A stretch of 35,558 bases of DNA from an uncultured Candidatus Saccharibacteria bacterium (GCA_964385825.1 CAYLPX010000003.1:1-35558), one strand, 5' to 3'; counted from the first letter of the stretch, positions 1,508 to 25,608 are shown. Notes: generated by a model not told the origin, from the sequence alone. Made by a program: numbers and translations.

Positions 1508-1616
1508 CCTGCGTTCTATTTTACCAGAAAACCCTTATTTCTCTTGTGGAAAACGCATATTTTTTATCTTAAAAAAGATGAGTTATCCACTTGTATTTTT
1601 TAGATATGTATGACCA

Positions 1617-6229: not shown

Positions 6230-6259
6230 AAAAAAAACGCGCCCCCAGTGGTGGGGGCG
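6230..6259 (-). terminator. Intrinsic terminator of the high-GC 94-aa ORF
   Basis: Perfect 8-bp stem CGCCCCCA/TGGGGGCG (6240-6247 / 6252-6259) with a 4-nt loop, followed on the minus strand by T8 (6230-6237). Confidence 0.75.
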
Positions 6260-6264
6260 GTCGA

Positions 6265-6549
6265 CTACTTGCCGGCCAGGATTTTCGTGGCCGCCGCAAC
6301 AGTAGTGGTACTCATGGCCTCATTGACCTTTGCGAAGGAAATCCCGCAAGGAGGCTCAAAACTTGAGCAAAAACCAGGCCTAGGATCCCTCTTCTTGATT
6401 CGCCTTTCACAGGTCTCGCTGCCATCCTTACTGCAAAGTGGGCAAAGGATCTTGTTAGGAAGTGGCCCGCGTAATGCTTTTTGCAGCTCGTAGGGGTAAA
6501 GCCTGTAGTATTCCTTGGCCCCGTCCCCGTTGGGTTCCTTGTGTGGCAT
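6265..6549 (-). CDS. Orphan Cys-rich small protein (94 aa) in high-GC cassette A
   Basis: GGAGGC SD 8 nt upstream of the ATG and its own terminator. Five Cys (CPLC..C..C..C). Line 6241-6300 counts 70% GC. I recognise no family. Confidence 0.55.
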   Translation of the reverse strand: MPHKEPNGDGAKEYYRLYPYELQKALRGPLPNKILCPLCSKDGSETCERRIKKRDPRPGFCSSFEPPCGISFAKVNEAMSTTTVAAATKILAGK

Positions 6550-6645
6550 TTCTACTGCCTCCGGTTTTTAAGAACAGCACCATTTTGCGCTGGTGATTTG
6601 GCGCCCGCCTTAATTCTTACCTGGCGATAAGGACCAACTATACCA

Positions 6646-7263
6646 CTATTTTGCCAAAAAGCTAGTACAGAAGCTCCTTCGGTGGATAACTGAAGGCCCA
6701 TACTTTTTAAGAGCCGCTCTATGCTCCGCTGTGCCATACCCTTTATGTTTTTGGAATCCATATGAGGTATATTTTACAGACTCCCTTACCATCCTCTTAT
6801 CACGCGAAACTTTGGCCACAATTGAAGCGAGTGCTATTACTAACTCCTTTTCATCCCCCTTTATAATCGTTTTCTGGTGCCTATATTCACTCGGTGCGCG
6901 CAATGACCCATCAAGTCGTATTTCACTCTTCAGGGGGCTAATTTGAAGCTTTTGGAGCCCCTTTTCTATACAACTTCTTATGGCTTTTGAAATACCTTTT
7001 GCATCTATGTACTTAGCACTTTTGTATACCACGACGTACTCTAATACCCCCTCTTTTTTAAGCTTTTTTATTTTTTGAAGCCACACCTCTCTCCCCTTTT
7101 CAGATAGTTTTTTAGAATCCTTCACTTCCCCGAAAACCTTAAACACCAAGTGTTTAAGGTTTTCGGGGAAACATACAATCCCAACAGCAACAGGACCAGC
7201 TAGTGGACCCCTTCCCACTTCATCAACCCCAACTAACATCCGTTTTATCTGCTTTTTTGCCAT
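6646..7263 (-). CDS. rnhB: Ribonuclease HII
   Basis: VGVDEVGRGPLAGPVAVG catalytic motif; typical length of 205 aa. Confidence 0.9.
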   Translation of the reverse strand: MAKKQIKRMLVGVDEVGRGPLAGPVAVGIVCFPENLKHLVFKVFGEVKDSKKLSEKGREVWLQKIKKLKKEGVLEYVVVYKSAKYIDAKGISKAIRSCIEKGLQKLQISPLKSEIRLDGSLRAPSEYRHQKTIIKGDEKELVIALASIVAKVSRDKRMVRESVKYTSYGFQKHKGYGTAEHRAALKKYGPSVIHRRSFCTSFLAK

Positions 7264-7286
7264 TTTTATCTGACCTTAATGTATGT

Positions 7287-7294
7287 AGTATACT
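7287..7294. promoter_or_regulatory. Overlapping face-to-face -10 boxes in the 40-nt rnhB/dnaE divergent spacer
   Basis: AGTATACT is palindromic. It reads TATACT on the plus strand (7289-7294, 9 nt before the dnaE ATG) and TATACT on the minus strand (7287-7292, 23 nt before the rnhB ATG). Confidence 0.45.
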
Positions 7295-7303
7295 CTAGTC
7301 ACT

Positions 7304-10300
7304 ATGAGCCGTTTCGTTCACCTCCATACTCACTCTCACTACTCTCTTTTAACCGCTCTCCCTAAAATTCCCGAACTTGTTAAGGCCGCCAAAGCGGATG
7401 AAATGGTGGCTCTTGCCTTAACTGACAATGGAAACTTGTATGGGGCCATTGAATTTTACAAAGAATGCAAAAAGGCGGGTATCAACCCGATTATTGGAGT
7501 TGATTTTTACGTTGCCACGCGCACAAGACATGACAAAGAAGCCAATGTGGACAATCGTCGCTATCGTTTAGTACTCCTTGCTGAAAATAATGCCGGCTAT
7601 CAAAACCTGATTAAACTCGTCACTGAATCAAACTTAGATGGTTTCTACTACAAACCACGTGTTGACCGTGAACTACTTGAAAAATACCACGAAGGACTAC
7701 TAGCCATTATCCCCTCTTTCTCTGGAGAAACATCGGGACCCTTACGCGTCACTGATTTTGAAAAAGCACAAGATATTTTGTCGTGGCATAAAAAGATTTT
7801 CGGTGAAAACAATGTTTTTCTAGAAATCACGCACCACCCTGACATAGAAAATCACGAGGAATTAAATACTCATATCAAAACCTTGGCCAGGGATACTAAG
7901 ACTCCACTTGTAGCTGCACACGATGTATACTACATGAAGCCGGAAGACAAGAGGGCGCGTGAAGTAGTACTTTCAATTCAAAATGGTGGCGCTGGTGGTC
8001 TTTCAAATGATGAAGAAGTGGGTGATTTTTCTTTCATTTCACAAAGTGAGGCTGAAAGTTACTTCAGTGATGTACCCGAAGCCCTTGCCAACACAGTCTC
8101 TGTTGCGAGTCGCTGTAAAGTTGAACTTGAACTTGGTACTTGGACCTTCCCCAACCTTATTCTTCCGAGTGGCAAAACCTATGAAGAGGAGCTTCGTGAA
8201 CTCACTTATGCAGGTATAGAAAAAAGAAAACTAGAGAGGACCGAAGAAGTCGTTAACCGCATTGAGTACGAACTAAATATTATTAAGCTCAAAGGCTTCG
8301 CGCCATACTTTTTGGTGGTGGCTGACTTACTCCACTACGCTCACGATCACGGCATTCTTACTACTATTCGCGGGTCGGTTGCTGGATCACTTGTTACCTA
8401 CCTCTCTGGTATCACCAACATTAACCCTCTTGAATACAAACTGCCCTTTGAACGCTTCCTCAACCCTGAGAGACCTGGTGCGCCTGATATTGATATGGAC
8501 TACGCCGATAACAGACGCGATGAAATGCATGAGTACGCACGAGTAAAGTATGGCCGTGATCATGTGGCGCAAATCGGAACATTCGGAACAATGATGGCGC
8601 GTGGTGCCGTACGCGATGTGGCACGCGCTCTCGGGTATCCCTATGGAGTTGGTGATCGTATCGCCAAAATTATTCCTTTTGGATCACAGGGTTTCCCCAT
8701 GACCATCGCCCACGCACTTGAAATCACTCCCGAACTTCAAGAAATCTACAAAAAAGAAGAAGATGTGCGGGAAATTATAGACATGGCCCAAAAAATTGAA
8801 GGTAATGCTCGTCATATCTCTATCCACGCAGCTGGTGTAGTTATTTCCAATCGCCCCTTAAATGAGGTTGTTCCTGTGCAGTACGACCCAAAGGAGGGTA
8901 ATAAAATCATCACACAATACGACATGTGGTGTATTGAAGATGTAGGGCTCCTTAAATTTGATTTTCTCGGTATCCGCAACCTAGCTATCCTCTCTGATGC
9001 AATGCGTCTCGTAAAAATTCATAACAATATCGTGGTGGACATTGAAAACGTCCCCCTTGATGACAAAAAAACTTTTGAACTACTCGCAAAGGGCGAAACA
9101 ATGGGACTATTCCAGCTCAATGGCTCAGGTATGACCAGATACCTTAAGGAATTGAAGCCGACGACCATTCACGATATCAACGCGATGGTGGCGCTCTATC
9201 GCCCAGGGCCTTTGGAATCCATTCCCTCATACATTGAACGCAAACATGACGCTTCTAAAGTCACCTATCTTGATCCGCGACTTAAAGATATTTTGGATCA
9301 ATCATACGGAGTGATTACCTATCAGGATGACGTGCTTTTAACGGCTATTAACCTGGCCGGATACTCATGGCTTGAAGCCGACAAACTCCGCAAGGCCATG
9401 GGTAAAAAAATTCCAGAGGTAATGCAAGCCGAAAAAGAAAAACTCATCAAAGGCTTCATTGAGTTCGGTAAACTAACCCCTCAAAAAGCTCAGAAACTTT
9501 GGGAACTTATTGAACCCTTTGCTGCGTACGGGTTCAATAAAGCCCATGCAGCCAGCTATGGTAAAGTCGCGTATCAAACAGCCTACATGAAGGCCAATTT
9601 TCCTGGAGAATACATGACTGCGGTACTGACCGCTGAATCGGGAGACGTGGAGGAAGTAGCTATCATTATCGCCGAATGTACGCGCATGGGACTTTCTGTG
9701 TTACCACCTGACATTAACGAGTCCTTCCGTGACTTTACCTTAGTGCGCAAAGAGCAAGCCAAGGACTGTATTCGATTTGGACTTGGAAGTATTAAAAACT
9801 TTGGTGAAGGTATCGCTGGCGCCATTATTGAGGAACGCACAAGAGGTGGTAGGTTTACTTCACTACCTGATTTTCTAACTCGCATTCAAAATAGAAACTT
9901 AAACAAAAAATCACTAGAGGCCCTTATCTATTCAGGAGCACTCGATACAATGGGAGAGCGTGGTAATCTGCTTTTCAACATTGAAGCCCTCCTCGCATAC
10001 AATCGTGATGCCAAAAAAGACGTAGATCAAACTTCCCTATTCGGTGGACTTGGGGGTGGAACAAGCGCTGTACAGTTAAAACCAAGTGAGCCGATGGGTC
10101 AAACTGAAAAACTAAAATGGGAAAAAGAACTTCTTGGTCTCTATATTTCAGGACACCCGCTTGATAAGCATAGAGAAAAACTTGCTGGCAAAAGCAGAAC
10201 CATAGAACAAATCAAAACAACGCTGCAAGACGGCATGATGGCAGTAGCACACGGCATCATAGAAGAAGTTAAGCCACTACTCACCAAAAAGGGGGACCGT

Positions 10301-10477: not shown

Positions 10478-10562
10478 CAGTTGATAACTCCTTTTTTCAA
10501 AAAATAAAGGAGTACAATTATACATAGATGTAGGCCGCCCACCTTCAAGAAAGGAGGACTTC

Positions 10563-10781
10563 ATGAGCGCAGCCCAAACGCTTCAAGACCAACCCGCCAC
10601 TCAACAGCAGGTGCAGCAGCAGCAAAAGCAGCAAAGAGGTGCAGTTGAAGTGCAAGAAGATGCACTAATGCATCTGGGCGCTGACCCCGCTGTGTATGCT
10701 GACGATGACACTCCCAAGACTCCACAGAGAAGGGCATTGCGGCGAGCGCCGATTGATGACCTTGTGGATGATGGGGTTTAG
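10563..10781 (+). CDS. Orphan Gln-rich/acidic small protein (72 aa) in high-GC cassette B
   Basis: AGGAGG SD 5 nt upstream of the ATG and a terminator downstream. Line 10561-10620 counts 60% GC. The sequence is low complexity (QQQVQQQQKQQ) and likely disordered. Confidence 0.45.
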   Translation: MSAAQTLQDQPATQQQVQQQQKQQRGAVEVQEDALMHLGADPAVYADDDTPKTPQRRALRRAPIDDLVDDGV

Positions 10782-10796
10782 TGGTTCACCCCCTTG

Positions 10797-10827
10797 AAAT
10801 GGGCGCCTTTGGTGCCCATTTGTTTTG
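10797..10827 (+). terminator. Intrinsic terminator of cassette B
   Basis: Stem AAATGGGCGCC/GGTGCCCATTT with one G-T wobble, followed by GTTTTG. Confidence 0.55.
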
Positions 10828-10861
10828 CGTAAACCTATAAAATGCTATAGTCTGTAACATT

Positions 10862-12100
10862 ATGGAAGAAAAAGAAAACGACCACAAAAAACTAGGTAAG
10901 GAGCTTGATTTATTTACTTTCTCAAGCACCGTTGGTAAGGGTCTACCACTCTGGACCGCTAAAGGGGCGGCGCTTCGTCGTTCACTTGAAAGATTTATTG
11001 TTGATGAAGAAATCAAACGCGGATATCAGCATGTCTACACCCCAGCAATTGCAAAACTAGATCTATATAAAAAGTCCGGTCACTACCCCCACTACAAGGA
11101 TTCCATGTATGCTCCAATTGTCATTGACGATGAGGAGTTCATGCTTCGTCCGATGACCTGCCCTCACCACTTTGAACTATATGCTCGCAAACCGTGGAGC
11201 TACCGTGAACTACCAGTTCGTATAGGAGAACTTGCTCAACTATATCGCTATGAGCAATCAGGAGAACTTATGGGCCTCCAACGAGTTCGTACCTTCTGTT
11301 TGGCTGATGCCCACATCATCTGTGTCAGTGAAGAGCAGGCGATTGAAGAAATTAGCGGAGCGCTTGATCTTATTGAATATGTATCTGGAGTCTTTGGGTT
11401 AAAGCAGGGAGTGGATTTTAAATACCGACTCTCACTTGGCGACCGTGATAATGCTGAAAAATACTACAAAAACGACGCCGCATGGGAGAAGGGAGAAGAT
11501 CTGCTTCGCAAACTTATGCAAAAGCGTAACCAGCCTTTTGTTGAAGCTAAAGATGAAGCTGCATTTTATGGACCAAAAATTGATGTGCAGATGAAAAATG
11601 CAAACGGTAAAGAGGACACTGCTTTTACCGTTCAGTATGACTTTTGTATGCCAGAGCGCTTTAACCTTACCTACATTGGGGATGATGGGAAAGAACACCG
11701 CGCATTTGTAGTCCACCGATCTTCAATAGGTGCTATTGAACGAGTAGTAGCTTTTCTCATTGAACATTTTGCTGGTGCCTTCCCTCTTTGGCTCTCACCA
11801 ATACAAACAACTATTCTCCCAATTAGTGAAAAACATGTTGCTTATGCCAAAGCATTAGAAAAGAAACTGATGGCAGAAAATATTCGTGTAGCGGTAGATG
11901 AAAGCAATGAATCACTGGGTAAAAAAATCCGCAATGCTAAAAACGAAAAGATTCCTTACCTCCTTGTGGTTGGTGATAAAGAAATAGAAACGAATGGCGC
12001 AAGTGTAGAAAGTCGTGACAAGGGAGCGCTTGGCGCCATGAGTGTGGAGGAAATTGTAGAGAAATTAACGATCGAAATTAAAGACAAAAGTCTTACGTAA
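10862..12100 (+). CDS. thrS: Threonyl-tRNA synthetase, catalytic plus anticodon-binding core only (412 aa)
   Basis: It starts at the DHKKLGKELDLF motif that opens the class II core. HRAFVVHRSSIGAIERVVAFLIEH is present, and the C-terminus looks like an anticodon-binding domain. No TGS or editing domain is present. A TATAGT -10 lies 10 nt before the ATG. Confidence 0.9.
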   Translation: MEEKENDHKKLGKELDLFTFSSTVGKGLPLWTAKGAALRRSLERFIVDEEIKRGYQHVYTPAIAKLDLYKKSGHYPHYKDSMYAPIVIDDEEFMLRPMTCPHHFELYARKPWSYRELPVRIGELAQLYRYEQSGELMGLQRVRTFCLADAHIICVSEEQAIEEISGALDLIEYVSGVFGLKQGVDFKYRLSLGDRDNAEKYYKNDAAWEKGEDLLRKLMQKRNQPFVEAKDEAAFYGPKIDVQMKNANGKEDTAFTVQYDFCMPERFNLTYIGDDGKEHRAFVVHRSSIGAIERVVAFLIEHFAGAFPLWLSPIQTTILPISEKHVAYAKALEKKLMAENIRVAVDESNESLGKKIRNAKNEKIPYLLVVGDKEIETNGASVESRDKGALGAMSVEEIVEKLTIEIKDKSLT

Positions 12101-12105
12101 GATTT

Positions 12106-12153
12106 AAAACAACAAAATCCCCGGAAGCTTCGCTTCCGGGGATTTTGTTGTTT
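12106..12153. terminator. Bidirectional intrinsic terminator between the convergent thrS and LPYTG-protein genes
   Basis: Perfect long palindrome AAAACAACAAAATCCCCGGAAGC-TTC-GCTTCCGGGGATTTTGTTGTTT, with A/T runs on both sides. Confidence 0.8.
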
Positions 12154-14224: not shown

Positions 14225-14285
14225 TTTTTCGCTAACAGTGCTGTAAAAAAATCGTGGTCTGTAATTACTAGCATAAAATGGGTCA

Positions 14286-14310
14286 GGAGGAGGAACCGAA
14301 GTTCCCCTCC
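14286..14310 (-). terminator. Hairpin with a C(UUCG)G tetraloop downstream of the high-GC lipoprotein gene
   Basis: Minus strand: GGAGGGGAAC-TTCG-GTTCCTCCTCC, a 10-bp stem with one bulge. The weak T-run means terminator function is uncertain. Confidence 0.35.
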
Positions 14311-14323
14311 CTTCCCGAACGAA

Positions 14324-15685
14324 TCACCAGCTCCGCATTGCGGTTTGCGCCGAAGGGCGAGTTACGGCATGGAAATGCCGATGGCATTCCCCCTGCGCCA
14401 AGTCCGGCGGCCGCATTTCACCCACCGTCATCCGCATGGTCGGCTTCCCGGATGCCTTGGGCGGAGACATGAGGTCGCCCTCATACACCGCTTCGAACCA
14501 ACTGGAGAACGCCGATTGCGGAACCACCATCGGCAGATCTTTGCCTTCCCAGCCGTAGGTGCCGAAGTTTTGCCAGCCGTTTTGCTGCTGACTGTGCATC
14601 AGGAGCTTTAGGTTGGGATCGGCCGGCGCATATCGGATCGCACCTGCCTCATACGCCTGCCGGAACTTCGCTCCGAGCTGGCGCGAGACCGACGCTGACT
14701 GAAATCCGCTCTCCCGAGCGGTGAGGTCAAGCACCTGCTGGCGCAATTCGGGCGGCAACGAGTTGCCATCCCAGATATGCGCATGCAGGGTCAGTGCGGT
14801 ACAACCGGCCGGTGCAACCACCGGCAAAACCGGCTGTTGCTGCACCAACTTCGGCGGCAATTCCGCCGCTTTGACTGGCGCCTTGGGGATGCAGATCTCG
14901 AGGATCAATTCCCCTGGCGCGCAGTTGCGCTGGAAGTAGCCGCCGAATTGCGTACGGGCCGTGTTGTTGTAGGACATGGCATACTTTGCAGTATGCGCCG
15001 CCGTGCACTTCACAGTGCGAAAGGTGTTCTTGCTGAAAAATTCCAGCAAGGCCACCTGCTCCGTCCGCCCTTCGGCGGTTGGAACCGGCATGCCGTTCGC
15101 ACGGAGTTCCTGCGCGAATGCCTTGAGGTCTTCCGGGAGAAGCCTCTTGTCGCCGACCTTGAGCGCCTCCAGGAACTGGGGGAACGTCAAGGCGGTATTC
15201 TTCTTGAAGAAGAAGGCATGTTGCGCCTTCGGCAGCGCGAGTTTCACCCCGCGCTGCTTCAGTTGCTCCACCTGCTCCAGCACGTTACCGCACCAGAGAG
15301 AGATGACCCCATCCCAGTCGCAGTTGTTTTGCAACGCCGCGATTTGAGTCGGATTGGTCACCTGGCCGGCGGCCGTTGCGGCCGCCGGGGCAGGAGCTGC
15401 TGCAGCCGGCTTGGAAGCCGATGCGGCAGGTGCCGAAGCTTGCGCTACGGCTGCGGGTGCAGCGGCCGGTGCGGCCGCTGTCGAAGCCGGAGCCGACGCT
15501 TTCGCACGCGGATCCGGCTTGCAAGGAACCCTTGCAGGCGCCCCACCCCCGATCGTACGAGTATTGCTGTCGCACATGCCATCCGCCGAAGCGGTTGGCT
15601 CACCGAAGACCCCCTTCATGAAGGAACCTCCAGCACATCCCGTCAGGGCAAATGCCAAGACGGTTACTGCAACGCGAGTGTACAT
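14324..15685 (-). CDS. Orphan lipoprotein with an Ala/Pro-rich linker (about 453 aa) in high-GC cassette C
   Basis: Internal start MYTRVAVTVLAFALTGCAG carries a lipobox (L-T-G-C); the ORF-track start at 15748 is probably too far upstream. The linker reads ASAPASTAAAPAAAPAAVAQASAPAAS.... Lines count 67% GC (14401-14460) and 80% GC (15361-15420). I recognise no family for the C-terminal two-thirds. Confidence 0.6.
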   Translation of the reverse strand: MYTRVAVTVLAFALTGCAGGSFMKGVFGEPTASADGMCDSNTRTIGGGAPARVPCKPDPRAKASAPASTAAAPAAAPAAVAQASAPAASASKPAAAAPAPAAATAAGQVTNPTQIAALQNNCDWDGVISLWCGNVLEQVEQLKQRGVKLALPKAQHAFFFKKNTALTFPQFLEALKVGDKRLLPEDLKAFAQELRANGMPVPTAEGRTEQVALLEFFSKNTFRTVKCTAAHTAKYAMSYNNTARTQFGGYFQRNCAPGELILEICIPKAPVKAAELPPKLVQQQPVLPVVAPAGCTALTLHAHIWDGNSLPPELRQQVLDLTARESGFQSASVSRQLGAKFRQAYEAGAIRYAPADPNLKLLMHSQQQNGWQNFGTYGWEGKDLPMVVPQSAFSSWFEAVYEGDLMSPPKASGKPTMRMTVGEMRPPDLAQGECHRHFHAVTRPSAQTAMRSW

Positions 15686-15814
15686 GACTGAACCCTTTCT
15701 AGTGGTTGAGTTTGATTCGTTACTTATACTTCCCGAGCGCGCGGACATCTACTACAATGCACGCTTGCGTTTGAGAAGTACAAGATTTCTCAAAGAACAG
15801 CTCCCCACCTTACG

Positions 15815-15856
15815 GTGAAGATTGAGAGAGGGACAAGTCCTTCTCTCAATCTTCAC
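15815..15856. other. 18-bp-stem hairpin between sortase and cassette C
   Basis: GTGAAGATTGAGAGAGGG / CCTTCTCTCAATCTTCAC with one G-T wobble and loop ACAAGT. No flanking T-run, so it is either an atypical terminator for the sortase gene or a cassette boundary element. Confidence 0.5.
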
Positions 15857-15876
15857 AACAAGAAATTTTCAAATTT

Positions 15877-16560
15877 CTAAAGAGCTTGTGCGCTCTTGTA
15901 ACTAGCGGTCACGATATACCGCTCTTCTTTGGCCCCAAAACTATCACAAGTTGAAAGTATGAGCTCGTGATCACGAGAAGCCACATTGATATACGCGAGA
16001 TCAGCGGTAGTGTGCACTACCTTTTCAACAACATAGGTATAGCTACGCTTGTTCCCATAGAGCACAACCGTATCCCCCTTCACCATGGAACGTAGCCCAT
16101 TAAAGGCTTTGTAGTTTTGATTGTGTACCACAGGCAAGAATGAGGAGTGGCCGAATATAAAGATATTCTGAGTACTCTCTAGGTCTCCCGAACCTGGATA
16201 TCGAACTGCCCCATAGAGTAGCGCATCGTCTAGCACTTTACCATCCCGACTCTCTGGGTTCAGAATCTTAGCATCAAGCCCTACTCGAGTAGAAACGATG
16301 CGCACTGGTTCGGTGTACTCCCCGGTACGATCAGTTGGTATACCTGATGTAGGTTCAGCCCCATTCATACTCACCCGATCGTCATGAACAAACAGTGAGA
16401 AAATCACGTTATTCACTTCACGGATGGAAAGTGGCACAGCATTGAAGCCAGCCGAAATCACAAAGAGCAAAACAAAGATAAAAAATGTTCGCTTCAAAAA
16501 GCGCGCCATTTTCTCGTCTTTATGTGCCTCGCTCGAGACTTTTTGCTCTGGTATCTCCAT
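15877..16560 (-). CDS. Sortase-family transpeptidase
   Basis: N-terminal TM (FFIFVLLFVISAGF), catalytic His context IFIFGHSSF, Cys motif LILSTC (TLxTC type) and a downstream Arg (EERYIV). Confidence 0.8.
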   Translation of the reverse strand: MEIPEQKVSSEAHKDEKMARFLKRTFFIFVLLFVISAGFNAVPLSIREVNNVIFSLFVHDDRVSMNGAEPTSGIPTDRTGEYTEPVRIVSTRVGLDAKILNPESRDGKVLDDALLYGAVRYPGSGDLESTQNIFIFGHSSFLPVVHNQNYKAFNGLRSMVKGDTVVLYGNKRSYTYVVEKVVHTTADLAYINVASRDHELILSTCDSFGAKEERYIVTASYKSAQAL

Positions 16561-16706
16561 AGCTTTTGCTTAAAAGTGTCAATGTAGGCAGAAATCCACC
16601 TCTTACTGACTAAAGCGTATGTTAGCATAAAAAAAGTACAGTGTCAATATTGGCGCTTTTTGCTAATTATGTCCTTGTTTTAGCCTATTGACAGCCATAG
16701 TTATAT

Positions 16707-17912: not shown

Positions 17913-17933
17913 TTAAAACAAGACCTAAACAAC

Positions 17934-17971
17934 AAAACCCCCGAGCACTTCGTGCTCGGGGGTTTTGGTTT
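17934..17971. terminator. Bidirectional intrinsic terminator between convergent surface-protein genes
   Basis: AAAACCCCCGAGCAC-TTC-GTGCTCGGGGGTTTTGGTTTTT. It has the same architecture as the 12106-12153 terminator. Confidence 0.8.
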
Positions 17972-20305: not shown

Positions 20306-20307
20306 AA

Positions 20308-20907: not shown

Positions 20908-20996
20908 ATATAGGCTAAATTGTACCACCCTACTAACCCTTGCCAACCCCATGTGGTTACTAAACCCCTCCCCACCCCACATACATCCTCACCTCT

Positions 20997-21042
20997 TATC
21001 GTGACGTCTATTTACGCTATAGCGTGAATAGACGTCACGATA
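20997..21042. promoter_or_regulatory. 46-bp near-perfect palindrome; candidate operator abutting the -10 box of the regulator gene
   Basis: TATCGTGACGTCTATTTACGCTA|TAGCGTGAATAGACGTCACGATA: 23-bp arms, no spacer and one mismatch (21013/21026). TACAAT at 21043-21048 follows directly, and the ATG is at 21056. Confidence 0.65.
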
Positions 21043-21055
21043 TACAATAATCTAC

Positions 21056-21607: not shown

Positions 21608-21628
21608 GCCACCAGTTATTTTTCCACA

Positions 21629-21656
21629 TTTGTACATCAAGGAAGATTGGTATAAT
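21629..21656 (+). promoter_or_regulatory. Promoter driving cassette D ORF1
   Basis: TTGTAC (or TTTGTA), 15-16 nt spacer, then consensus TATAAT at 21651-21656. Confidence 0.5.
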
Positions 21657-21686
21657 CAAAGGAGCACAAACTCTCGGAGAAACTCC

Positions 21687-21860
21687 ATGACCAGTTCCTT
21701 GCCGGATCCAGCGACATGGCCTAATGAACGTCTCATCACCTTCCTTGCAGGAAGTGATGAGGGGTCGCAAGATCCCCGCCTCCGCAAAGCCGCAATGGCT
21801 GTTGCGGAATCGCGAGGATTGGGGCCTTCGCTTGATGCACACATGCTCGACCTCAACTGA
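21687..21860 (+). CDS. Orphan small acidic protein (57 aa), high-GC cassette D ORF1
   Basis: GGAGA SD 6 nt upstream of the ATG at 21687. The ORF-track N-terminus from 21567 overlaps the regulator gene and is unlikely to be real. A terminator follows. Line 21841-21900 counts 67% GC. Confidence 0.45.
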   Translation: MTSSLPDPATWPNERLITFLAGSDEGSQDPRLRKAAMAVAESRGLGPSLDAHMLDLN

Positions 21861-21880
21861 GCGTAGCCTCTTTCCTAGCC

Positions 21881-21905
21881 GCCGCGGACCCCCGCGGCCT
21901 TTTTC
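21881..21905 (+). terminator. Intrinsic terminator after cassette D ORF1
   Basis: Stem GCCGCGG/CCGCGGC, loop ACCC, then CTTTTTC. Confidence 0.65.
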
Positions 21906-21989
21906 ATATCTTAGTGTGGATAAGTTGTCTTCACAAAAAATTACAAATACTGCATAGTATTAATCTTCTGTATCCCGTGGGGGGAATGT

Positions 21990-22235
21990 ATGCCGACGCT
22001 GGCAGATGTAACGAGATTTCGCATCAAAGCCCTCAAACCACTCTATGAGAAGGTTGAGGCTGAAGGTCAAGAAGTTCGGGCTGCTGGCAAATGGATAAGG
22101 CAAGACACCGATCTTCAGTTCGCACCACGCAGCATGGAATTCCTAACGATGGGCATCATGACCCATTGCGGATACCCACACACAATCAATGGGGTTACGT
22201 ATTACATCCTCGTACGCGACCTTGAGAGAGTCTGA
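21990..22235 (+). CDS. Orphan small protein (81 aa), high-GC cassette D ORF2
   Basis: G-rich SD-like GGGGGGA 4 nt upstream of the ATG. Two hairpins follow, the second a strong terminator. I recognise no family. Confidence 0.5.
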   Translation: MPTLADVTRFRIKALKPLYEKVEAEGQEVRAAGKWIRQDTDLQFAPRSMEFLTMGIMTHCGYPHTINGVTYYILVRDLERV

Positions 22236-22251
22236 CCCCGAGAGGGTCAGC

Positions 22252-22283
22252 AAAAACCGGCGATCGAATCGCCGGTCTTTTTT
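22252..22283. terminator. Bidirectional terminator shared by cassette D ORF2 and gyrB
   Basis: AAAAACCGGCGAT-CGA-ATCGCCGGTCTTTTTT. The T-run overlaps the gyrB stop codon. Confidence 0.75.
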
Positions 22284-24345
22284 ATATATCGAGCTGTGCC
22301 TTAGTCGCATTGCTTTGGATAAAGCTTTTACGACTCGGTACGTCAGTTCCCATCAAGACATCAAACACCTTATCCGCCTCTTGCGCATCTTCTATTTTCA
22401 CCTGCTTTAAAATACGACGCTTAGGATCCATGGTTGTCTCCCACAATTCCTCGGGGTTCATTTCTCCAAGTCCTTTGTAGCGAGCTACCGTAACTTTAGC
22501 AACACGCTTTGCTTTGGTATCCTCAGGCGCCTCTTCTTCATTTTCCTCTCCCTCAATCTCAACTATCATCTCAGCTATTTCTGGAGCGTCCTTCCCTACT
22601 ATCTTTTTCATCTCCTCCTCGCTGTAAGCGTAATTGACCTCCTTACCGCGTTTAATTTTAAAAAGTGGTGGCTGAGCAATATAGATAAACCCACCATCCA
22701 AGAGCGGTCTGAAGTGTCTGTAAAACAAGGTTAGAATAAGCGTACGGATATGTTCTCCATCAACATCCGCATCAGTTGCAATGATGATTTTGTGATAGCG
22801 CAACTTATCTAGGTTAAAAGTGTCACCAATCAAAGTTCCGAGCGCCAAGACCAGTGAACGGATTTCAACAGATGCCAGCATTTTATCAAGTCGTGCGCGT
22901 TCTACGTTCAAAATCTTACCTTTGAGCGGCAATATAGCTTGTGTCTTGCGATCGCGCCCCTGTTTGCTAGAACCGCCAGCAGAATCTCCCTCTACTATGA
23001 AAAGTTCGGCATCCTCGGCTGAAGTGTTCCCGGCACAATCAGCAAGTTTTCCTGGTAGATTAAAACCTTCAAGGGCCCCCTTACGAAGCACACTATCCTT
23101 CGCAGCCTTTGCAGCCTTGCGTGCGCGAAGAGCCAAAATACCTTTGTTGATAATCTCCCGAGCATCATCAGGGTTCTCCTCCAAAAAGGCACTGAATGCA
23201 TCTGAGAAAACAGTCGAAACTGCAGGCTGCGCTTCAAGCGTGGTGAGCTTGCTCTTAGTTTGACTACTAAACTGTACTTCACGCATCTTCACTGAAATGA
23301 TAGCAGTGAGTCCCTCAAGCACATCTTCACCAGTTAAATTCTCATCTTTTTCTTTAAGAACATTATTCTTGCGAGCATAGGTATTAATGATACGAGTAAG
23401 CGAAAGCTTGAACCCGGCCACATGTGTACCACCTTCACTGTTTACAATATTGTTCGCGAAAGCAATAACTCTCGTAGTGATGTCATCGATGTATTGCATG
23501 GCGATTTCCACCTGCACTCCATCATGCTCTTTTTCGATATAGAAAATATTGCGATGAATCGGTTTTGAAAACTCATTATAGTGTTTGAGTAATGACTTAA
23601 GCCCACCTTCAAAAAAGAAAGAAGAGGTTGGTACTTCATACCCAAGATCAGAAAAATAGACTTTGTTATCAAGATCTAACTTGGTACACTCACGCGCATC
23701 AATGGTACGGATAAGCACACTACGCACAAGGTAGGCTTGCTGACGAAGATGACCGACAATTTTTTCAAAATTAAATTCAGTCGTTTCCTTGAAGATTTCC
23801 TTATCTGGCTTAAACGTTGTGATGGTTCCCGTGAACTTAGTTTTACCAACCTGCTTCACTCGGGCTTTGGCCTTACCCTGAGAATACTCCTGCATGTACA
23901 CTAAGCCATCGCGATGTACTTCTACTTTCATATAAATAGAGAGAGCGTTCACTACAGATGCTCCCACACCATGAAGACCGCCCGAAACGTTGTACCCTTC
24001 CCCTCCGAATTTTCCACCAGCATGGAGGGTGGTCATGATAGTTTCAAGTGCTGAAACTTTTGTTTTAGCATGAACATCAACTGGAATACCACGACCATTA
24101 TCAACCACTCGAATATAATTATCAGGCAAAATGGTAACTTCAATGCGATCAGCATATCCATTCATCGCCTCATCACGTGAGTTATCAAAAATTTCCCAAA
24201 TGAGGTGATGGAGTCCACGCTCATCTACTTCCCCGATATACATCCCCGGGCGCTTACGCACAGGTTCTAGCCCCTCAAGCACAGTGATATCCTGCGCGTT
24301 ATATTCGTGAGCTACCTTTTTCTTTGCTTCTTCTTTTTTGGCCAT
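22282..24345 (-). CDS. gyrB: DNA gyrase subunit B
   Basis: GHKL ATPase motifs (VDNGRGIPV, GGLHGVGASVVNALS), TOPRIM (ELFIVEGDSAGGS, IIIATDADVDGEHI) and YKGLGEMN. Confidence 0.95.
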   Translation of the reverse strand: MAKKEEAKKKVAHEYNAQDITVLEGLEPVRKRPGMYIGEVDERGLHHLIWEIFDNSRDEAMNGYADRIEVTILPDNYIRVVDNGRGIPVDVHAKTKVSALETIMTTLHAGGKFGGEGYNVSGGLHGVGASVVNALSIYMKVEVHRDGLVYMQEYSQGKAKARVKQVGKTKFTGTITTFKPDKEIFKETTEFNFEKIVGHLRQQAYLVRSVLIRTIDARECTKLDLDNKVYFSDLGYEVPTSSFFFEGGLKSLLKHYNEFSKPIHRNIFYIEKEHDGVQVEIAMQYIDDITTRVIAFANNIVNSEGGTHVAGFKLSLTRIINTYARKNNVLKEKDENLTGEDVLEGLTAIISVKMREVQFSSQTKSKLTTLEAQPAVSTVFSDAFSAFLEENPDDAREIINKGILALRARKAAKAAKDSVLRKGALEGFNLPGKLADCAGNTSAEDAELFIVEGDSAGGSSKQGRDRKTQAILPLKGKILNVERARLDKMLASVEIRSLVLALGTLIGDTFNLDKLRYHKIIIATDADVDGEHIRTLILTLFYRHFRPLLDGGFIYIAQPPLFKIKRGKEVNYAYSEEEMKKIVGKDAPEIAEMIVEIEGEENEEEAPEDTKAKRVAKVTVARYKGLGEMNPEELWETTMDPKRRILKQVKIEDAQEADKVFDVLMGTDVPSRKSFIQSNATKAQLDI

Positions 24346-24540
24346 GCTGTTAGTTTGTAAGGTAGTTTTGTAAACAAAAAATACCTCCTTAGGTCACCCT
24401 ATTATAGCAAAATTAGAGCTAGAAAGAAAGCTAAAAAAGCCTTATCTTACATAGCTAAAACTTGCTTTTTAAGGTATTTATGGGATAGTTGTAGTCAGTG
24501 TAGTTCCCCTTTAACCCTTTCCCTTTTGGGAGGAGGTTGT

Positions 24541-25047
24541 ATGAAATACTTCTGGTTTCTCTTTGCCCTCTGCCTTGCCGGAGCGTGCTGCGCACAAACG
24601 CCGAAAATGGTGGGGTGGCACCTGTTCCCCATCGAGACCGAAGATGGTGGGGTGGAGCCCCGGTTTACGGGAGTGATAGACACCGCATGGTGCGACATCA
24701 CCATCAAAGCAACCAACCATTTGGTCTTCTCGGCGCTTGTAGCCGAAGAGAATCAACCGCGGTACCAGGAGGGAGGTACCATACAACACAAGGAGATCTC
24801 GATAAAAGGCGTTCCGGGGGTACTCACTATCCTCACCAATAACGCCGTCAACGTCGAGGTCGGAGAGGGCAAATGGTTGAGTACTGATGCGCCACCACGA
24901 CCATTATTCCAAGAATACTGCGTGGATGCAGTGAGGCGCTTGCCAGGCGCCGTTCAGGCCCTTTTCGGGGGAACCTTTGGGATCGGGAGACCCCTTACCG
25001 AAATACCACAGGCATTGATACTTCGGGTTCAAGAAGGAGCGGACTGA
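24541..25047 (+). CDS. Orphan secreted protein (168 aa), high-GC cassette E ORF1
   Basis: GGGAGGAGG SD directly upstream of the ATG at 24541. Signal peptide MKYFWFLFALCLAGACCAQ. Line 24601-24660 counts 63% GC. Confidence 0.55.
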   Translation: MKYFWFLFALCLAGACCAQTPKMVGWHLFPIETEDGGVEPRFTGVIDTAWCDITIKATNHLVFSALVAEENQPRYQEGGTIQHKEISIKGVPGVLTILTNNAVNVEVGEGKWLSTDAPPRPLFQEYCVDAVRRLPGAVQALFGGTFGIGRPLTEIPQALILRVQEGAD

Positions 25048-25048
25048 A

Positions 25049-25177
25049 ATGAAAACCCTCCAAATCATCGCCGGCACAGTTGCCGGCGATCGGTGGCAAA
25101 CAGCTGCCGTAAGCCGTATCCCGATCTTCATTCTTCTCATTCTTGTTTTCACCCTCGCCTATGTGGCGGGAGTATGA
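25049..25177 (+). CDS. Micro-ORF (42 aa) encoding a C-terminal TM helix, translationally coupled to cassette E ORF1
   Basis: Hand-translated: MKTLQIIAGTVAGDRWQTAAVSRIPIFILLILVFTLAYVAGV. Its ATG lies 1 nt after the ORF1 TGA, with an AAGGAG SD 9 nt upstream and a terminator immediately after. It is below the 60-aa track threshold. Confidence 0.4.
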   Translation: MKTLQIIAGTVAGDRWQTAAVSRIPIFILLILVFTLAYVAGV

Positions 25178-25184
25178 AGACAGG

Positions 25185-25214
25185 CGGCGCCCACCCGGGG
25201 CGCCGTTTTCTTTT
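25185..25214 (+). terminator. Intrinsic terminator after cassette E ORF1-ORF2
   Basis: 8-bp GC stem CGGCGCCC/GGGCGCCG, 5-nt loop, then TTTTCTTTT. Confidence 0.7.
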
Positions 25215-25267
25215 GCAGGAATAATAAAAATATAGTAAAACCTAAGTAGACAACTTGGGAGCCGAAC

Positions 25268-25591
25268 ATGAACCTCCACGCCATCAATCGCATCCTAGCC
25301 ATGCTGGCAGTCGCCGCGGCGTCTGCTGCTTGGTACCACAAGACGTACAACCAAATCGATTACGCAGTACAGGTTTGGGAACACAACAAGGCGGACGATG
25401 AGGAGTACCGCAGATACGCCTACATCAAGGAGTTCGAGTTTGGCACCTGCTATGCCAACGAGGATGGCGCCCTCCTCCATGGAAGGATTTTGGGCTTTGC
25501 CGACATGCAGAGGCTTGACCTTTGCATGAAAGATTTCCGAGAAAACGGGCGCGCTGAACTTTCGATCGCCCTTGATGCTGACCCGCCGTGA
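25268..25591 (+). CDS. Orphan protein with an N-terminal hydrophobic segment (107 aa), high-GC cassette E ORF3
   Basis: GGGAG SD 6 nt upstream. N-terminus INRILAMLAVAAASAAW. A TATAGT -10-like box at 25233-25238. The terminator hairpin contains the stop codon. Confidence 0.5.
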   Translation: MNLHAINRILAMLAVAAASAAWYHKTYNQIDYAVQVWEHNKADDEEYRRYAYIKEFEFGTCYANEDGALLHGRILGFADMQRLDLCMKDFRENGRAELSIALDADPP

Positions 25592-25603
25592 GGCGGGTTT
25601 TTT
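25582..25603 (+). terminator. Intrinsic terminator after cassette E ORF3
   Basis: CCCGCC-GTGA-GGCGGG followed by T6. The stop TGA sits in the loop. Confidence 0.75.
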
Positions 25604-25608
25604 GCTTT

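What the first reader, a model, noticed from the sequence alone, without database searches (positions are those of the whole stretch)
6230..25605. Five compositionally foreign high-GC cassettes sit in intergenic spacers of an AT-rich streamlined genome
- **Cassettes:** five segments differ sharply from their surroundings:
  - A, about 6230-6640
  - B, about 10530-10835
  - C, about 14270-15860
  - D, about 21660-22285
  - E, about 24500-25605
- **Composition:** hand-counted 60-nt lines give 70% GC (6241), 60% (10561), 67% and 80% (14401, 15361), 67% (21841) and 63% (24601). Backbone lines give 32-45% (19261, 20401, 8401).
- **Placement:** each segment lies between intact backbone genes and disrupts none. 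The flanking pairs are rnhB|rpmF, dnaE|thrS, sortase|LPYTG protein, regulator|gyrB and gyrB|C39 peptidase.
- **Content:** each holds one to three ORFs I cannot assign to any family. Most have a GGAGG-type SD, and each cassette ends in its own GC-rich hairpin, T-run terminators in all but C.
- **Orientation:** four of the five (A, B, C, D) sit immediately downstream of, and co-oriented with, the neighbouring backbone gene.
- **Products:** several are envelope-targeted, including a lipobox lipoprotein, a signal-peptide protein and small TM proteins.

Repeated, clean, promoter-compatible insertion of foreign cassettes without any visible integrase, transposase or flanking repeat is not a pattern I can match to a described mobile-element class. 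One candidate explanation, purely inferential, is piecemeal acquisition from a high-GC partner or host organism.
Basis: partly seen in the sequence, partly recalled or inferred. Interest (0 to 1): 0.85.

Follow-up and report, generated by a model that had tools for sequence, protein, structure and literature searches.

The report
GC-rich resident genes in Paceibacteria slots
The five GC-rich segments are real, but at least four of them hold old, fast-evolving genes that related ultra-small bacteria carry at the same positions, so they are not freshly inserted foreign DNA; why they stay GC-rich is unexplained.

Summary
The composition steps are real. The five segments have 52-60% GC against a 42% backbone (z 2.6-4.8), and GC3 is 0.65 against 0.37. 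More than 15 independent assemblies exclude mis-assembly.

The "foreign insertion" reading fails for at least four of the five segments. The window comes from a Patescibacteria (Paceibacteria) genome.
- **A, B, C and the first E gene:** each has an ortholog at the same position in related species.
- **C family:** this lipoprotein always follows the sortase gene in at least 8 lineages. It is always 8-25 GC points (in GC3 11-45 points) above its own backbone, although synonymous sites are largely saturated.
- **A and E1:** their orthologs have backbone-like composition in some relatives.
- **Mobile-element signs:** I found no donor, integrase, attC site, flanking repeat, phage family or RNA family.

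A new result concerns expression signals. Backbone genes lack Shine-Dalgarno (SD) sites and look leaderless. The GC-rich genes are leadered, SD-dependent units with their own terminators (15 of 18 against 7 of 70 genes across 8 loci, p = 3e-9). The GC excess is confined to ORFs and terminator stems.

Best reading: these are resident, clade-restricted accessory genes whose GC excess is actively maintained by an unknown cause. D, E_42 and E_107 may be newer gains.

The parts
6265..6549 (-). A_94: small protein with four invariant Cys (C36, C39, C47, C61), lying between rnhB and rpmF. GC 0.533, GC3 0.61.
   Evidence: ORF. In the protein collection as a singleton cluster. Orthologs sit in the same slot in species 2 (L104, 97 aa, E = 5e-35, GC 0.541) and in species 3 (L106/L107, 83 aa, E = 1e-17, GC 0.397). 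No Pfam hit.
6558..6562 (-). GGAGG Shine-Dalgarno site, 8 nt before the A_94 start codon
6240..6259 (-). Intrinsic terminator of A_94 (8-bp stem, 7 GC pairs, followed by T8)
10513..10518 (+). TACAAT -10-like hexamer, 44 nt upstream of B_72, giving a leadered transcript
10563..10781 (+). B_72: Q-rich, acidic small protein with a conserved C-terminal RAPIDDL motif, lying between dnaE and thrS. GC 0.553. GGAGG SD at 10553-10557.
   Evidence: A 75-aa ortholog sits in the same slot in species 2 (E = 6e-12, 46% identity, GC 0.544). The dnaE-thrS gap is only about 20-64 nt in the more distant L002 and L017.
10797..10821 (+). Intrinsic terminator of B_72
14324..15748 (-). C: lipoprotein, 474-aa ORF. 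The likely start is M21 at 15685 (MYTRVAVTVLAFALTGC, a lipobox). It has an Ala/Pro-rich linker followed by two conserved modules. GC 0.615, GC3 0.70.
   Evidence: Family members lie directly downstream of sortase in L088/L104, L089, L092, L094, L097 and L098, and L108 carries a C-domain homolog next to a p690-like LPXTG gene. All are GC-rich relative to their own backbone. The C-terminal module is predicted as a beta-sandwich with block-mean pLDDT about 75-94, with no PDB match.
14283..14310 (-). GC-rich hairpin after the C stop codon, without a proper T-run
15815..15856 (-). 20-bp hairpin between the sortase stop codon and the C start codon, in the AT-rich leader (0.429 GC)
   Evidence: (I7)
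21651..21656 (+). TATAAT -10 hexamer, preceded by TGG, 30 nt before D_57
21687..21860 (+). D_57: small ORF, GC 0.569. Terminator at 21881-21898.
   Evidence: No homolog was found in the relatives. Coding status is not tested by comparison.
21990..22235 (+). D_81: small ORF, GC 0.504, with its own promoter-like site at 21930-21958 and a terminator at 22256-22276
   Evidence: No homolog was found. In species 3 this slot holds a different GC-rich, SD-led 53-aa ORF (L089 4214-4375).
24541..25047 (+). E_168: secreted protein with a signal peptide. GC 0.552, GC3 0.62. GGAGG SD.
   Evidence: Positional orthologs lie between C39 and gyrB in L089 (206 aa, GC3 0.556) and L092 (GC 0.414, GC3 0.38). Against the 91%-identical strain L102 there are 43 synonymous and 16 nonsynonymous codon differences.
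25049..25177 (+). E_42: small membrane protein with an AGGAG SD. Terminator at 25182-25208.
   Evidence: Present in L102 at 97% identity, with 3 synonymous and 1 nonsynonymous difference. Absent from L089 and L092.
25268..25591 (+). E_107: signal-anchor protein, GC3 0.685. Its own TATAGT hexamer lies 31 nt upstream, with a GGAG SD. Terminator at 25580-25599.
   Evidence: Found on 15 contigs from independent assemblies. Against L102 it is 97% identical, with 7 synonymous and 2 nonsynonymous differences. Absent from L089 and L092.

Best explanation
The five segments are not newly inserted foreign cassettes. They are eight resident accessory genes restricted to one clade of Patescibacteria (class Paceibacteria). 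They occupy fixed slots between conserved housekeeping genes.

**Shown**
- Four of the five slots (A, B, C and the first gene of E) hold orthologs in related species. These genes were therefore in place before those species split.
- They evolve much faster than their neighbours.
- C is an integral member of a conserved surface-assembly locus: CARDB protein, sortase, C lipoprotein, LPXTG adhesin.
- Each gene is a self-contained, leadered unit: a native AT-rich promoter or read-through from upstream, a Shine-Dalgarno site, a GC-rich ORF and a GC-rich hairpin terminator. The surrounding backbone genes lack SD sites and mostly have a -10 box 7-12 nt before the ATG, which fits leaderless mRNAs.

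**Inferred**
- The GC excess and the SD sites most likely come from one or more old lateral acquisitions in the ancestor of the clade.
- The excess is now held up gene by gene, because it survives largely saturated synonymous divergence. I commit to ORF-bound maintenance, either selection on the coding sequence or mRNA of this leadered, SD-dependent gene class, or GC-biased recombination at these fast-turnover loci. Recency of arrival is not the cause.
- D_57, D_81, E_42 and E_107 are later additions to the same slots.
For: **Authenticity**
- An independent Logan assembly reproduces both C junctions at 99.93% identity.
- Fifteen contigs from JGI, ENA and Logan samples carry D and E in the same context at about 100% identity.

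**Taxon and synteny**
- The best GyrB and RNase HII hits are Paceibacteria MAGs.
- The gene order is conserved: pheST, C39, gyrB, then CARDB, sortase, then thrS, dnaE, rnhB, rpmF.

**Orthologs in the slots**
- A.
- B.
- C, in 8 lineages.
- E_168.
- Family profiles find nothing in 80 more distant relatives.

**Rates (window against species 2)**
- Most backbone proteins are 84-92% identical (rnhB 69%, sortase 71%, the LPXTG protein p690 58%). A, B and C are 52%, 46% and 44% identical.
- Four-fold sites are 0.33-0.46 identical in nearly all genes (0.54-0.61 in rnhB and rpmF).
- GC at four-fold sites stays at 0.50-0.76 in the cassettes of both species, against 0.28-0.49 in the backbone.

**Amelioration model (my inference)**
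- A four-fold identity of about 0.40 with a random expectation of about 0.27 means that only about 18% of sites are unchanged.
- A passive deviation would therefore shrink to about 0.42 of its size per lineage.
- C's present GC4 of 0.74 would then need an ancestral GC4 above 1.
- In L098 the C homolog has GC3 0.73 next to a sortase gene at 0.285.

**Coding status**
- Synonymous against nonsynonymous differences are 43:16, 3:1 and 7:2 for the three E genes, compared with a strain about 91% identical.

**Expression signals**
- 15 of 18 GC3-excess genes have an SD site, against 7 of 70 other genes, in 8 loci (Fisher p = 3e-9).
- -10 hexamers lie 7-12 nt before the ATG in about 10 of 21 backbone genes, against 30-44 nt for cassette promoters.

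**ORF-bound excess**
- ORFs have 0.50-0.62 GC and terminator stems 0.53-0.69. The spacers inside D and E have 0.345.

**Turnover**
- The two modules of C are shuffled among species.
- E_42 and E_107 are 97% identical to L102, while E_168 and gyrB are 86-87% identical.
Against: - The cause of the persistent GC excess is not demonstrated. No polarised substitution data exist, and neither selection nor biased conversion has been tested.
- D_57, D_81, E_42 and E_107 have no homologs in any relative examined. For these, recent acquisition remains possible, and D's coding status is unverified.
- One short, uniformly high-GC contig (L100, 58.7% GC) encodes a C-family member (hmmsearch E = 6e-16). An outside high-GC reservoir is therefore not excluded.
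- Only 35 kb of this genome and 2-20 kb of each relative were seen. I do not know how many GC-rich, SD-led genes exist genome-wide.
- Leaderless transcription is inferred from motif spacing only.
- My single pooled homolog search for the small ORFs was technically unreliable. It did not find the query's own proteins. "ORFan" for A, B, D and E therefore rests on the local comparisons and on singleton 90%-identity clusters.
Confidence: 0.62

Rival explanations
1. The five cassettes are recent, independent insertions of foreign DNA, taken up piecemeal (for example by natural competence) from a high-GC partner or host, through a mechanism that leaves no integrase or repeats.
For: - GC3 and codon usage resemble a genome of about 55-62% GC.
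- SD-led units sit in an SD-free backbone.
- The genes are ORFans.
- D_57, D_81, E_42 and E_107 are absent from species 3 and species 4.
- The high-GC contig L100 carries a C-family gene.
Against: - A, B, C and E_168 have positional orthologs in species separated by largely saturated synonymous divergence.
- The A and E1 orthologs have backbone composition in some relatives.
- Promoters and spacers are native-like and AT-rich.
- No donor was found in 1.84 billion representative proteins, phages or plasmids.
- There are no repeats or target-site duplications.
- The same slot would have to be hit independently in at least 8 lineages.
Confidence: 0.1
2. The slots are recombination hot spots. Alleles and modules are repeatedly swapped among related Paceibacteria by homologous recombination in the conserved flanks, and GC-biased gene conversion at these loci drives both the fast protein evolution and the GC excess.
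For: - The C modules are mosaic. The window has N1+C1, its closest species has N1 with an unrelated C-terminus, and species 3 has another N-terminal module with C1.
- The N module of the distant L094 is 58-61% identical to the window, while its sortase is only 46% identical.
- Divergence in the E region against L102 is mosaic, 97% against 86-87%.
- Adhesin genes that recombine in reduced AT-rich genomes are known to be GC-rich (Mycoplasma P1 and MgPa; my own knowledge, not verified here).
Against: - The excess is 10-25 GC points and up to 45 points in GC3. That is far above the few points usually ascribed to biased conversion in bacteria (my own knowledge).
- The excess stops sharply at ORF and terminator ends, and drops to 34.5% in the 52-84-nt spacers inside D and E. 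A tract-based process should blur these edges.
- The A gene tree is congruent with the species tree.
- The fast-evolving surface genes p690, p785 and p401 are not GC-rich.
Confidence: 0.2
3. The segments are artefacts or non-coding features: chimeric assembly of a high-GC organism's reads into a CPR contig, or GC-rich structured RNAs misread as ORFs.
For: - High-GC patches in MAG contigs are a classic sign of chimeras.
- Structured RNAs are GC-rich in AT-rich genomes.
- D has no comparative support for coding.
Against: - More than 15 independent assemblies from different samples and pipelines reproduce the junctions.
- Orthologous arrangements occur in other species.
- No Rfam hit, even at permissive thresholds.
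- Third-position-dominated divergence and protein-level conservation show coding for A, B, C and E.
Confidence: 0.02

Closest known systems
Chromosomal hot spots or genomic islets of accessory genes between core genes (the concept of Oliveira et al. 2017, Nat Commun; cited from my own knowledge)
   Same: - Short intervals between conserved housekeeping genes hold ORFan accessory genes.
- There are no integrases, transposases or repeats.
- Content varies between species at some slots. The D slot holds different genes in the window and in species 3. E_42 and E_107 are extra genes in E. The B slot holds non-homologous genes in L092 and L098.
   Different: - Most slot genes here are orthologous across species, not turned over.
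- They are GC-richer than the backbone, whereas recently acquired genes are usually AT-richer.
- The anomaly persists through largely saturated divergence.
Phage morons (autonomous promoter-gene-terminator units of deviant composition between conserved phage genes)
   Same: - The anatomy is alike: own promoter, SD, one small gene, an intrinsic terminator and deviant GC.
- The unit sits between intact neighbouring genes.
   Different: - There is no prophage context. The flanks are dnaE, thrS, gyrB, rnhB, rpmF and sortase.
- There are no significant PHROGs matches (best E 0.003 and 0.085) and no matches in phage genomes.
- The genes are conserved at chromosomal positions across species.
Integron gene cassettes, including cassettes at secondary sites
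   Same: - Small, mostly ORFan units, often encoding secreted or membrane proteins.
- Co-oriented with an upstream promoter.
- Heterogeneous GC.
   Different: - No attC-type imperfect inverted repeat with R''/R' core sites.
- No integrase and no array.
- Each unit ends in a plain terminator hairpin, and several have their own promoters.
GC-rich adhesin genes of AT-rich reduced genomes (Mycoplasma pneumoniae P1 operon and RepMP, M. genitalium MgPa; my own knowledge, not confirmed in the papers I opened)
   Same: A surface-protein gene in a small AT-biased genome keeps a markedly higher GC than the rest and shows modular recombination.
   Different: - No repeated donor copies are seen in the window.
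- The phenomenon here also covers small cytosolic proteins (A, B).
- It is coupled to a switch in the mode of translation initiation.
Genomes with mixed leaderless and SD-led initiation (GeneMarkS-2 'group C', such as Actinobacteria and Deinococcus; my own knowledge)
   Same: Many first genes have a -10 box right before the ATG and no SD site, and a minority of genes are leadered with a canonical SD.
   Different: In those genomes the two classes do not differ in base composition. Here the SD-led class is the GC-rich, clade-specific one.

Membership tests
Integron gene cassette | attC recombination site at the 3' end (imperfect inverted repeat with R''/L''-L'/R' cores, GTTRRRY) | tested here: not met
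   The 3' ends carry simple 7-11-bp GC stems followed by T-runs. No shared or attC-like inverted repeats were found.
Integron gene cassette | Integron integrase and attI, or an array context | tested here: not met
   The window holds no recombinase-like gene (Pfam annotations of the neighbours; ORF list). The units are dispersed singly over 19 kb.
IS, transposon or MITE | Terminal inverted repeats, target-site duplication, transposase | tested here: not met
   The repeat scan of 5800-26200 finds no repeats flanking or shared by the segments. No transposase domain was found.
Phage moron or prophage remnant | Location inside a prophage, or homology to phage proteins | tested here: not met
   The flanks are housekeeping genes. 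The best PHROGs E-values are 0.003 and 0.085. No tblastn or blastn match in 50,697 phage records. The IMG/VR scan gave only a spurious 21-aa match.
Recently acquired genomic island (HGT) | Deviant composition relative to the host genome | tested here: met
   GC is 0.52-0.60 against 0.42. GC3 is 0.645 against 0.369. Codon usage is distinct.
Recently acquired genomic island (HGT) | Absence from the same site in related genomes | tested here: not met
   A, B, C and E_168 are present at the same sites in species 2, 3 and 4 and beyond. Inconclusive for D, E_42 and E_107, which are absent in species 3 and 4 (E_42 and E_107 are present in the 91%-identical strain L102; D could not be checked there).
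Recently acquired genomic island (HGT) | An identifiable donor lineage with closer homologs than the recipient's relatives | tested here: not met
   All C homologs with usable context lie in Paceibacteria sortase loci. Only L100, a 2.1-kb high-GC contig, is ambiguous. No plasmid or phage hits.
Structured non-coding RNA | Match to a known RNA family, or lack of a coding signature | tested here: not met
   No Rfam match at gathering or permissive thresholds. Coding signatures are present for A, B, C and E. D was not tested by comparison.
Sortase-associated surface-assembly locus (for gene C) | Conserved adjacency to a sortase gene and an LPXTG substrate gene | tested here: met
   C homologs lie directly downstream of sortase, or directly upstream of the He_PIG/PKD or p690-like LPXTG protein, in every lineage with usable context except the short high-GC contig L100. 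The window's p690 carries LPYTG.
Bacterial lipoprotein (for gene C) | Signal peptide with a lipobox ending in Cys | tested here: met
   LTGC in the window, and FGGC, LAGC, LGGC and LSGC in the homologs. Presence of Lgt and Lsp in this genome is not testable from the window.

The most novel reading that the evidence does not exclude
This Paceibacteria clade runs two gene classes with different rules. The first is an AT-rich, SD-free, largely leaderless housekeeping backbone. The second is a small set of clade-specific envelope and small-protein genes that are leadered and SD-dependent, and whose coding sequences are actively held 10-25 GC points above the genome. The cause could be selection on the mRNA (for example stability against AU-directed RNases, or a separate translation regime) or a locus-targeted GC-biased process. 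The C lipoprotein in the sortase locus is the clearest case. The most extreme version, which the evidence does not exclude, is that these signals are tuned to a high-GC, SD-using host.
Probability: 0.2. Interest if true: 0.75.

Novelty: new variant of a known kind. Interest (0 to 1): 0.5.

Why it matters
**For genome scanning.** A sharp GC step, ORFan content and clean junctions do not prove recent insertion. Synteny with relatives reversed the interpretation here.

**For CPR/Patescibacteria biology.** Three points can now be tested:
- A clade-restricted lipoprotein family is an obligatory partner of the sortase and LPXTG adhesin locus, which makes it a candidate for host attachment.
- The chromosome appears to use leaderless initiation for housekeeping genes and SD-led initiation for a distinct accessory class.
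- That class keeps a foreign-like composition through largely saturated synonymous divergence. Simple amelioration theory says this should not happen. If a maintaining force is confirmed, it would be a rare bacterial example of gene-specific base-composition equilibrium, and a marker for finding symbiosis-related genes in uncultured episymbionts.

Tried and rejected
- **Rfam.** Scans at gathering and permissive thresholds, on the window and on seven related loci, gave nothing in the cassettes. The hits were only terminator-like noise.
- **Pfam and PHROGs.** Nothing usable on any cassette ORF. Pfam on slot genes of relatives and on the neighbours in L100 also gave nothing.
- **Full-length C against 5.8 billion proteins.** Only the self hit returned. 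The Ala/Pro-rich linker probably swamped the word filter. The exhaustive HMMER search with the C-terminal 345 aa then found the family.
- **Pooled query.** I concatenated six small ORFs into one query. It returned nothing, not even the proteins' own entries, although all are in the collection. I disregard it as uninformative.
- **Integron and transposon idea.** Rejected. There are no attC-like sites, terminal repeats or duplications.
- **Structure of C.** The model is confident only for the C-terminal beta-sandwich. Foldseek against PDB gave no hit below E = 0.027 (transthyretin-like, generic). A profile search against PDB sequences gave nothing.
- **Viral collection.** The scan with E_107 gave one spurious 21-aa match.
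- **Phage and plasmid BLAST.** Nothing.
- **Literature.** I found nothing on SD usage or leaderless initiation in CPR, and nothing on conserved GC-rich genes there.
- **Polarising substitutions.** The window-against-L102 differences are balanced at 38:39, but this is uninformative without an outgroup.

Full report

Yes.
- The window has 43.8% GC overall and 42.2% outside the five segments. Backbone 300-nt windows have mean 0.423, sd 0.037 and maximum 0.517.
- The five segments have 0.530 (A), 0.549 (B), 0.600 (C), 0.518 (D) and 0.541 (E), which gives z = 2.6-4.8.
- Pooled GC3 is 0.645 in the cassette ORFs against 0.369 in the backbone ORFs. Codon choice shifts strongly: ATC 0.74 against 0.22, AAC 0.72 against 0.38, CCG 0.42 against 0.16, TCG 0.36 against 0.09. 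The proteins have about twice as much Ala and Pro.
- The flanking pairs, orientations, SD sites and terminators are as described.
- "AT-rich streamlined genome" overstates a 42% GC backbone. Only C is a dramatic outlier.

**2. Not an artefact**
- A Logan assembly of another run (L001) reproduces the stretch from sortase through C to the LPYTG gene with 3 mismatches in 4,193 nt.
- E_107 is found on 15 contigs from JGI, ENA and Logan assemblies. The six I fetched (6-20 kb) are 99.995-100% identical to the window across D, gyrB, E and C39.
- All eight cassette ORFs were called as genes by the source pipelines.
- Rfam finds no RNA family in the segments.

**3. What organism, and what do its relatives look like?**
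- The best GyrB matches are Patescibacteria of the Paceibacteria/Parcubacteria group, at 63-72% identity to species representatives. RNase HII gives the same answer.
- Gene order is well conserved: GH1, GT2, pheS, pheT, C39, gyrB, then CARDB, sortase, an LPXTG protein, thrS, dnaE, rnhB, rpmF, nusB-like, rnc and smc.
- I recovered several closer relatives:
  - Species 2: L088, L104 and L105 (GCA_964541455.1). Sortase is 71% identical, dnaE 90%.
  - Species 3: L089, L106 and L107 (JGI 3300015360). GyrB is 77% identical.
  - Species 4: L092 and L093.
  - Further lineages: L094 (GCA_021731245.1), L097, L098/L099 and L108.
  - L102, a strain about 91% identical in DNA.

**4. The slots are occupied in the relatives, mostly by orthologs**

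| Slot | Window | Relatives |
|---|---|---|
| A (rnhB / rpmF) | A_94, GC 0.533 | Species 2: 97 aa, 52% identity, GC 0.541, GC3 0.61. Species 3: 83 aa, 35% identity, backbone composition (GC 0.397, GC3 0.417), no SD. Four Cys invariant. |
| B (dnaE / thrS) | B_72, GC 0.553 | Species 2: 75 aa, 46% identity, GC 0.544. L092 and L098: unrelated 151-aa and 131-aa genes at backbone GC. More distant genomes: a gap of only about 20-64 nt. |
| C (sortase / LPXTG) | C_474, GC 0.615 | See below. |
| D (regulator / gyrB) | D_57 and D_81 | No homolog. Species 3 has a different GC-rich, SD-led 53-aa ORF with its own terminator in that slot. |
| E (gyrB / C39) | E_168, E_42, E_107 | E_168 orthologs in species 3 (206 aa, GC3 0.556) and species 4 (GC 0.414, GC3 0.38). 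E_42 and E_107 are absent there but present in L102. |

For C, an exhaustive HMMER search of 1.84 billion representative proteins found only 8 hits.
- Every hit with usable context lies directly after sortase or directly before the LPXTG gene.
- One short contig, L100, is high-GC throughout and is ambiguous.

Profiles of the four families find nothing in the 80 more distant relatives.

**5. The anomaly is old and persistent**

Between the window and species 2:
- Most backbone proteins are 84-92% identical (rnhB 69%, sortase 71%, the LPXTG protein p690 58%). A, B and C are 52%, 46% and 44% identical.
- Four-fold degenerate sites are only 0.33-0.46 identical in nearly all genes (0.54-0.61 in rnhB and rpmF), which is close to saturation.
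- GC at four-fold sites remains 0.50-0.76 in the cassette genes of both species, against 0.28-0.49 in the backbone.

The C homolog against the sortase gene beside it. For L089 the sortase coordinates include a short upstream extension.

| Lineage | C homolog GC / GC3 | Sortase GC / GC3 |
|---|---|---|
| Window | 0.615 / 0.70 | 0.463 / 0.46 |
| L104 | 0.626 / 0.73 | 0.444 / 0.45 |
| L089 | 0.56 / 0.63 | GC not computed / 0.45 |
| L092 | 0.538 / 0.54 | 0.383 / 0.35 |
| L094 | 0.555 / 0.67 | 0.355 / 0.28 |
| L097 | 0.549 / 0.58 | 0.461 / 0.47 |
| L098 | 0.618 / 0.73 | 0.364 / 0.285 |

In L108 the C-domain gene has 59.9% GC next to a p690-like gene at 36%.

A simple amelioration model is my own inference from the numbers. 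About 18% of four-fold sites are unchanged, so a deviation shrinks to about 0.42 per lineage. C in the window-species 2 ancestor would then need a GC4 above 1. A single old transfer that is passively decaying therefore cannot explain C. Independent hits on the same slot in at least 8 lineages are implausible. Something keeps these ORFs GC-rich, or they are replaced from a reservoir that is itself kept GC-rich.

**6. Are they genes?**

Against L102, codon differences are 43 synonymous to 16 nonsynonymous in E_168, 3 to 1 in E_42 and 7 to 2 in E_107. Third positions dominate. A, B, C and E_168 are conserved as proteins with invariant Cys, Trp and Gly motifs. D has no comparative test.

**7. A second, unexpected difference: how the genes are expressed**
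- In the window, about 1 of 21 backbone genes has an SD-like motif. About 10 have a TATAAT-like hexamer ending 7-12 nt before the ATG, the spacing expected for leaderless mRNAs.
- Cassette genes have GGAGG or AGGAG sites. Where they have their own promoter, the -10 box lies 30-44 nt upstream.
- Every C homolog in the relatives has AGGAG(G), and its neighbours have none.
- Over 88 genes in 8 loci, 15 of 18 genes with a GC3 excess of at least 0.12 have an SD-like motif, against 7 of 70 others (odds ratio 45, p = 3e-9). Four of those seven exceptions are themselves slot-family members.
- The GC excess is bound to ORFs and terminators. ORFs have 0.50-0.62 GC and terminator stems 0.53-0.69. Leaders, promoters and the spacers inside D and E have 0.26-0.48, with both inner spacers at 0.345.
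- The units therefore use native-looking AT-rich promoters around GC-rich coding sequences. That fits long residence, not imported blocks.

**8. Signs of turnover**
- C consists of two modules that are shuffled. The window and species 4 have N1+C1. Species 2, the closest species, has N1 plus an unrelated C-terminus. Species 3 has a different N-terminus plus C1. L094 has N1 at 58-61% identity, although its sortase is only 46% identical.
- Against L102, E_42 and E_107 are 97% identical, while E_168 and gyrB are 86-87% identical.
- These loci recombine. Whether this causes the GC excess is open.

**9. Function**

C is a lipoprotein. It has a lipobox, an Ala/Pro-rich linker, a Cys-containing N module and a C-terminal beta-sandwich (block-mean pLDDT about 75-94). 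It has no structural or sequence match in PDB. Its fixed place between the sortase gene and the LPXTG He_PIG/PKD adhesin gene suggests a role in surface assembly or attachment. That is an inference. The other products are:
- E_168: secreted.
- E_42 and E_107: membrane-anchored.
- A: a small four-Cys protein, probably metal-binding.
- B: acidic and Q-rich.

**10. Comparison with known systems**
- **Integron cassettes, IS elements, MITEs, morons.** The defining features were tested and not met.
- **HGT hot spots between core genes.** This concept fits the placement, but not the orthology or the direction and persistence of the GC deviation.
- **Mixed leaderless and SD genomes.** These are known, but without a compositional split between the two classes.
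- **GC-rich recombining adhesin genes of Mycoplasma.** From memory, these are the nearest analogue for C.

**11. Verdict**
- The insertion or new-mobile-element interpretation is not supported for at least four of the five segments.
- The remaining finding is moderately interesting and, as far as my limited literature searches showed, not described: a clade-wide class of leadered, SD-dependent genes with a stably elevated GC content in a leaderless AT-biased backbone.
- The mechanism that keeps the GC high is not resolved.

Noticed in passing
window, upstream of smc (3873-3890), rnc, rpmF, dnaE (7285-7303), thrS (10840-10861), p183, C39, pheS, p332: About 10 of 21 backbone genes have a TATAAT-like hexamer ending 7-12 nt before the ATG and no SD site. 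This suggests that leaderless mRNAs dominate in this Paceibacteria genome. I found no paper describing this for CPR.
   Followed up: partly
window 20997-21042; also 15898-15919 and about 14240-14250; L092 upstream of 11349: A 46-nt perfect-type palindrome (TATCGTGACGTCTATT...) lies between the divergent p224 gene and the PaaX-like regulator p183. A related GTCACGATA half-site lies inside the 3' end of the sortase gene, and CCACGAT or GTCACGAT motifs lie upstream of the LPXTG protein genes. This may be the regulator's operator, linking it to the surface-protein genes.
   Followed up: no
window 26264-28627 (-): The PheT (phenylalanyl-tRNA synthetase beta) product carries a precomputed Pfam hit to NLPC_P60 between its B3_4 and B5 domains, in this genome and in L097. 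That is an odd domain for a tRNA synthetase subunit.
   Followed up: no
window 12107-12153 and 17925-17975: Two bidirectional terminators between convergent backbone genes are 75% identical to each other (AAACAACAAAAYCCCCG...). They gave the spurious His_leader and ohsC Rfam hits.
   Followed up: partly
window 24134-25569 against L102: Divergence from a related strain is mosaic. The gyrB 5' end is 85.8% identical and E_168 87%. The gyrB-E intergenic region is 98.5%, and E_42 and E_107 are 97%. This suggests recent recombination or strong constraint on the divergent promoter region.
   Followed up: partly
L094 2346-3080: An archaeal-type IMP cyclohydrolase gene (PF07826) in an AT-rich relative is also GC-rich (GC3 0.63 against 0.26-0.28 for its neighbours) and has a GAGG motif upstream. 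GC-rich, SD-led outliers are therefore not limited to ORFans in this clade.
   Followed up: no
window 10862-12100 (thrS) against L098 7742-9490 and L092 13817-15202: ThrS is only 412 aa here and 410 aa in species 2 and 3, lacking the N-terminal editing (tRNA_SAD) region. L098 has a 582-aa form with tRNA_SAD. The short form is 72% identical to ThrS of the GC-rich L013 and L025, but about 42% identical to other relatives. Two ThrS types may circulate in the group.
   Followed up: no
window 1-1510 (-) and 13615-13862: A large surface-protein ORF runs off the 5' end of the window. It has roughly 120-nt repeats and a strong GC skew (+0.47). The LPYTG protein p690 holds 33-nt tandem repeats encoding DIGGG-type units.
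   Followed up: no
L100 (ERZ1758447, 2,140 nt): This is the only C-family member outside a recognisable Paceibacteria sortase locus. The contig has 58.7% GC throughout, and the gene encodes a signal-peptide (not lipobox) protein with a GGAG motif upstream. It could be a glimpse of an outside reservoir, or just a GC-rich relative.
   Followed up: partly
method note: A homolog search with several small proteins concatenated into one query returned nothing, not even the proteins' own database entries. Such pooled queries should not be read as evidence of absence.
   Followed up: yes
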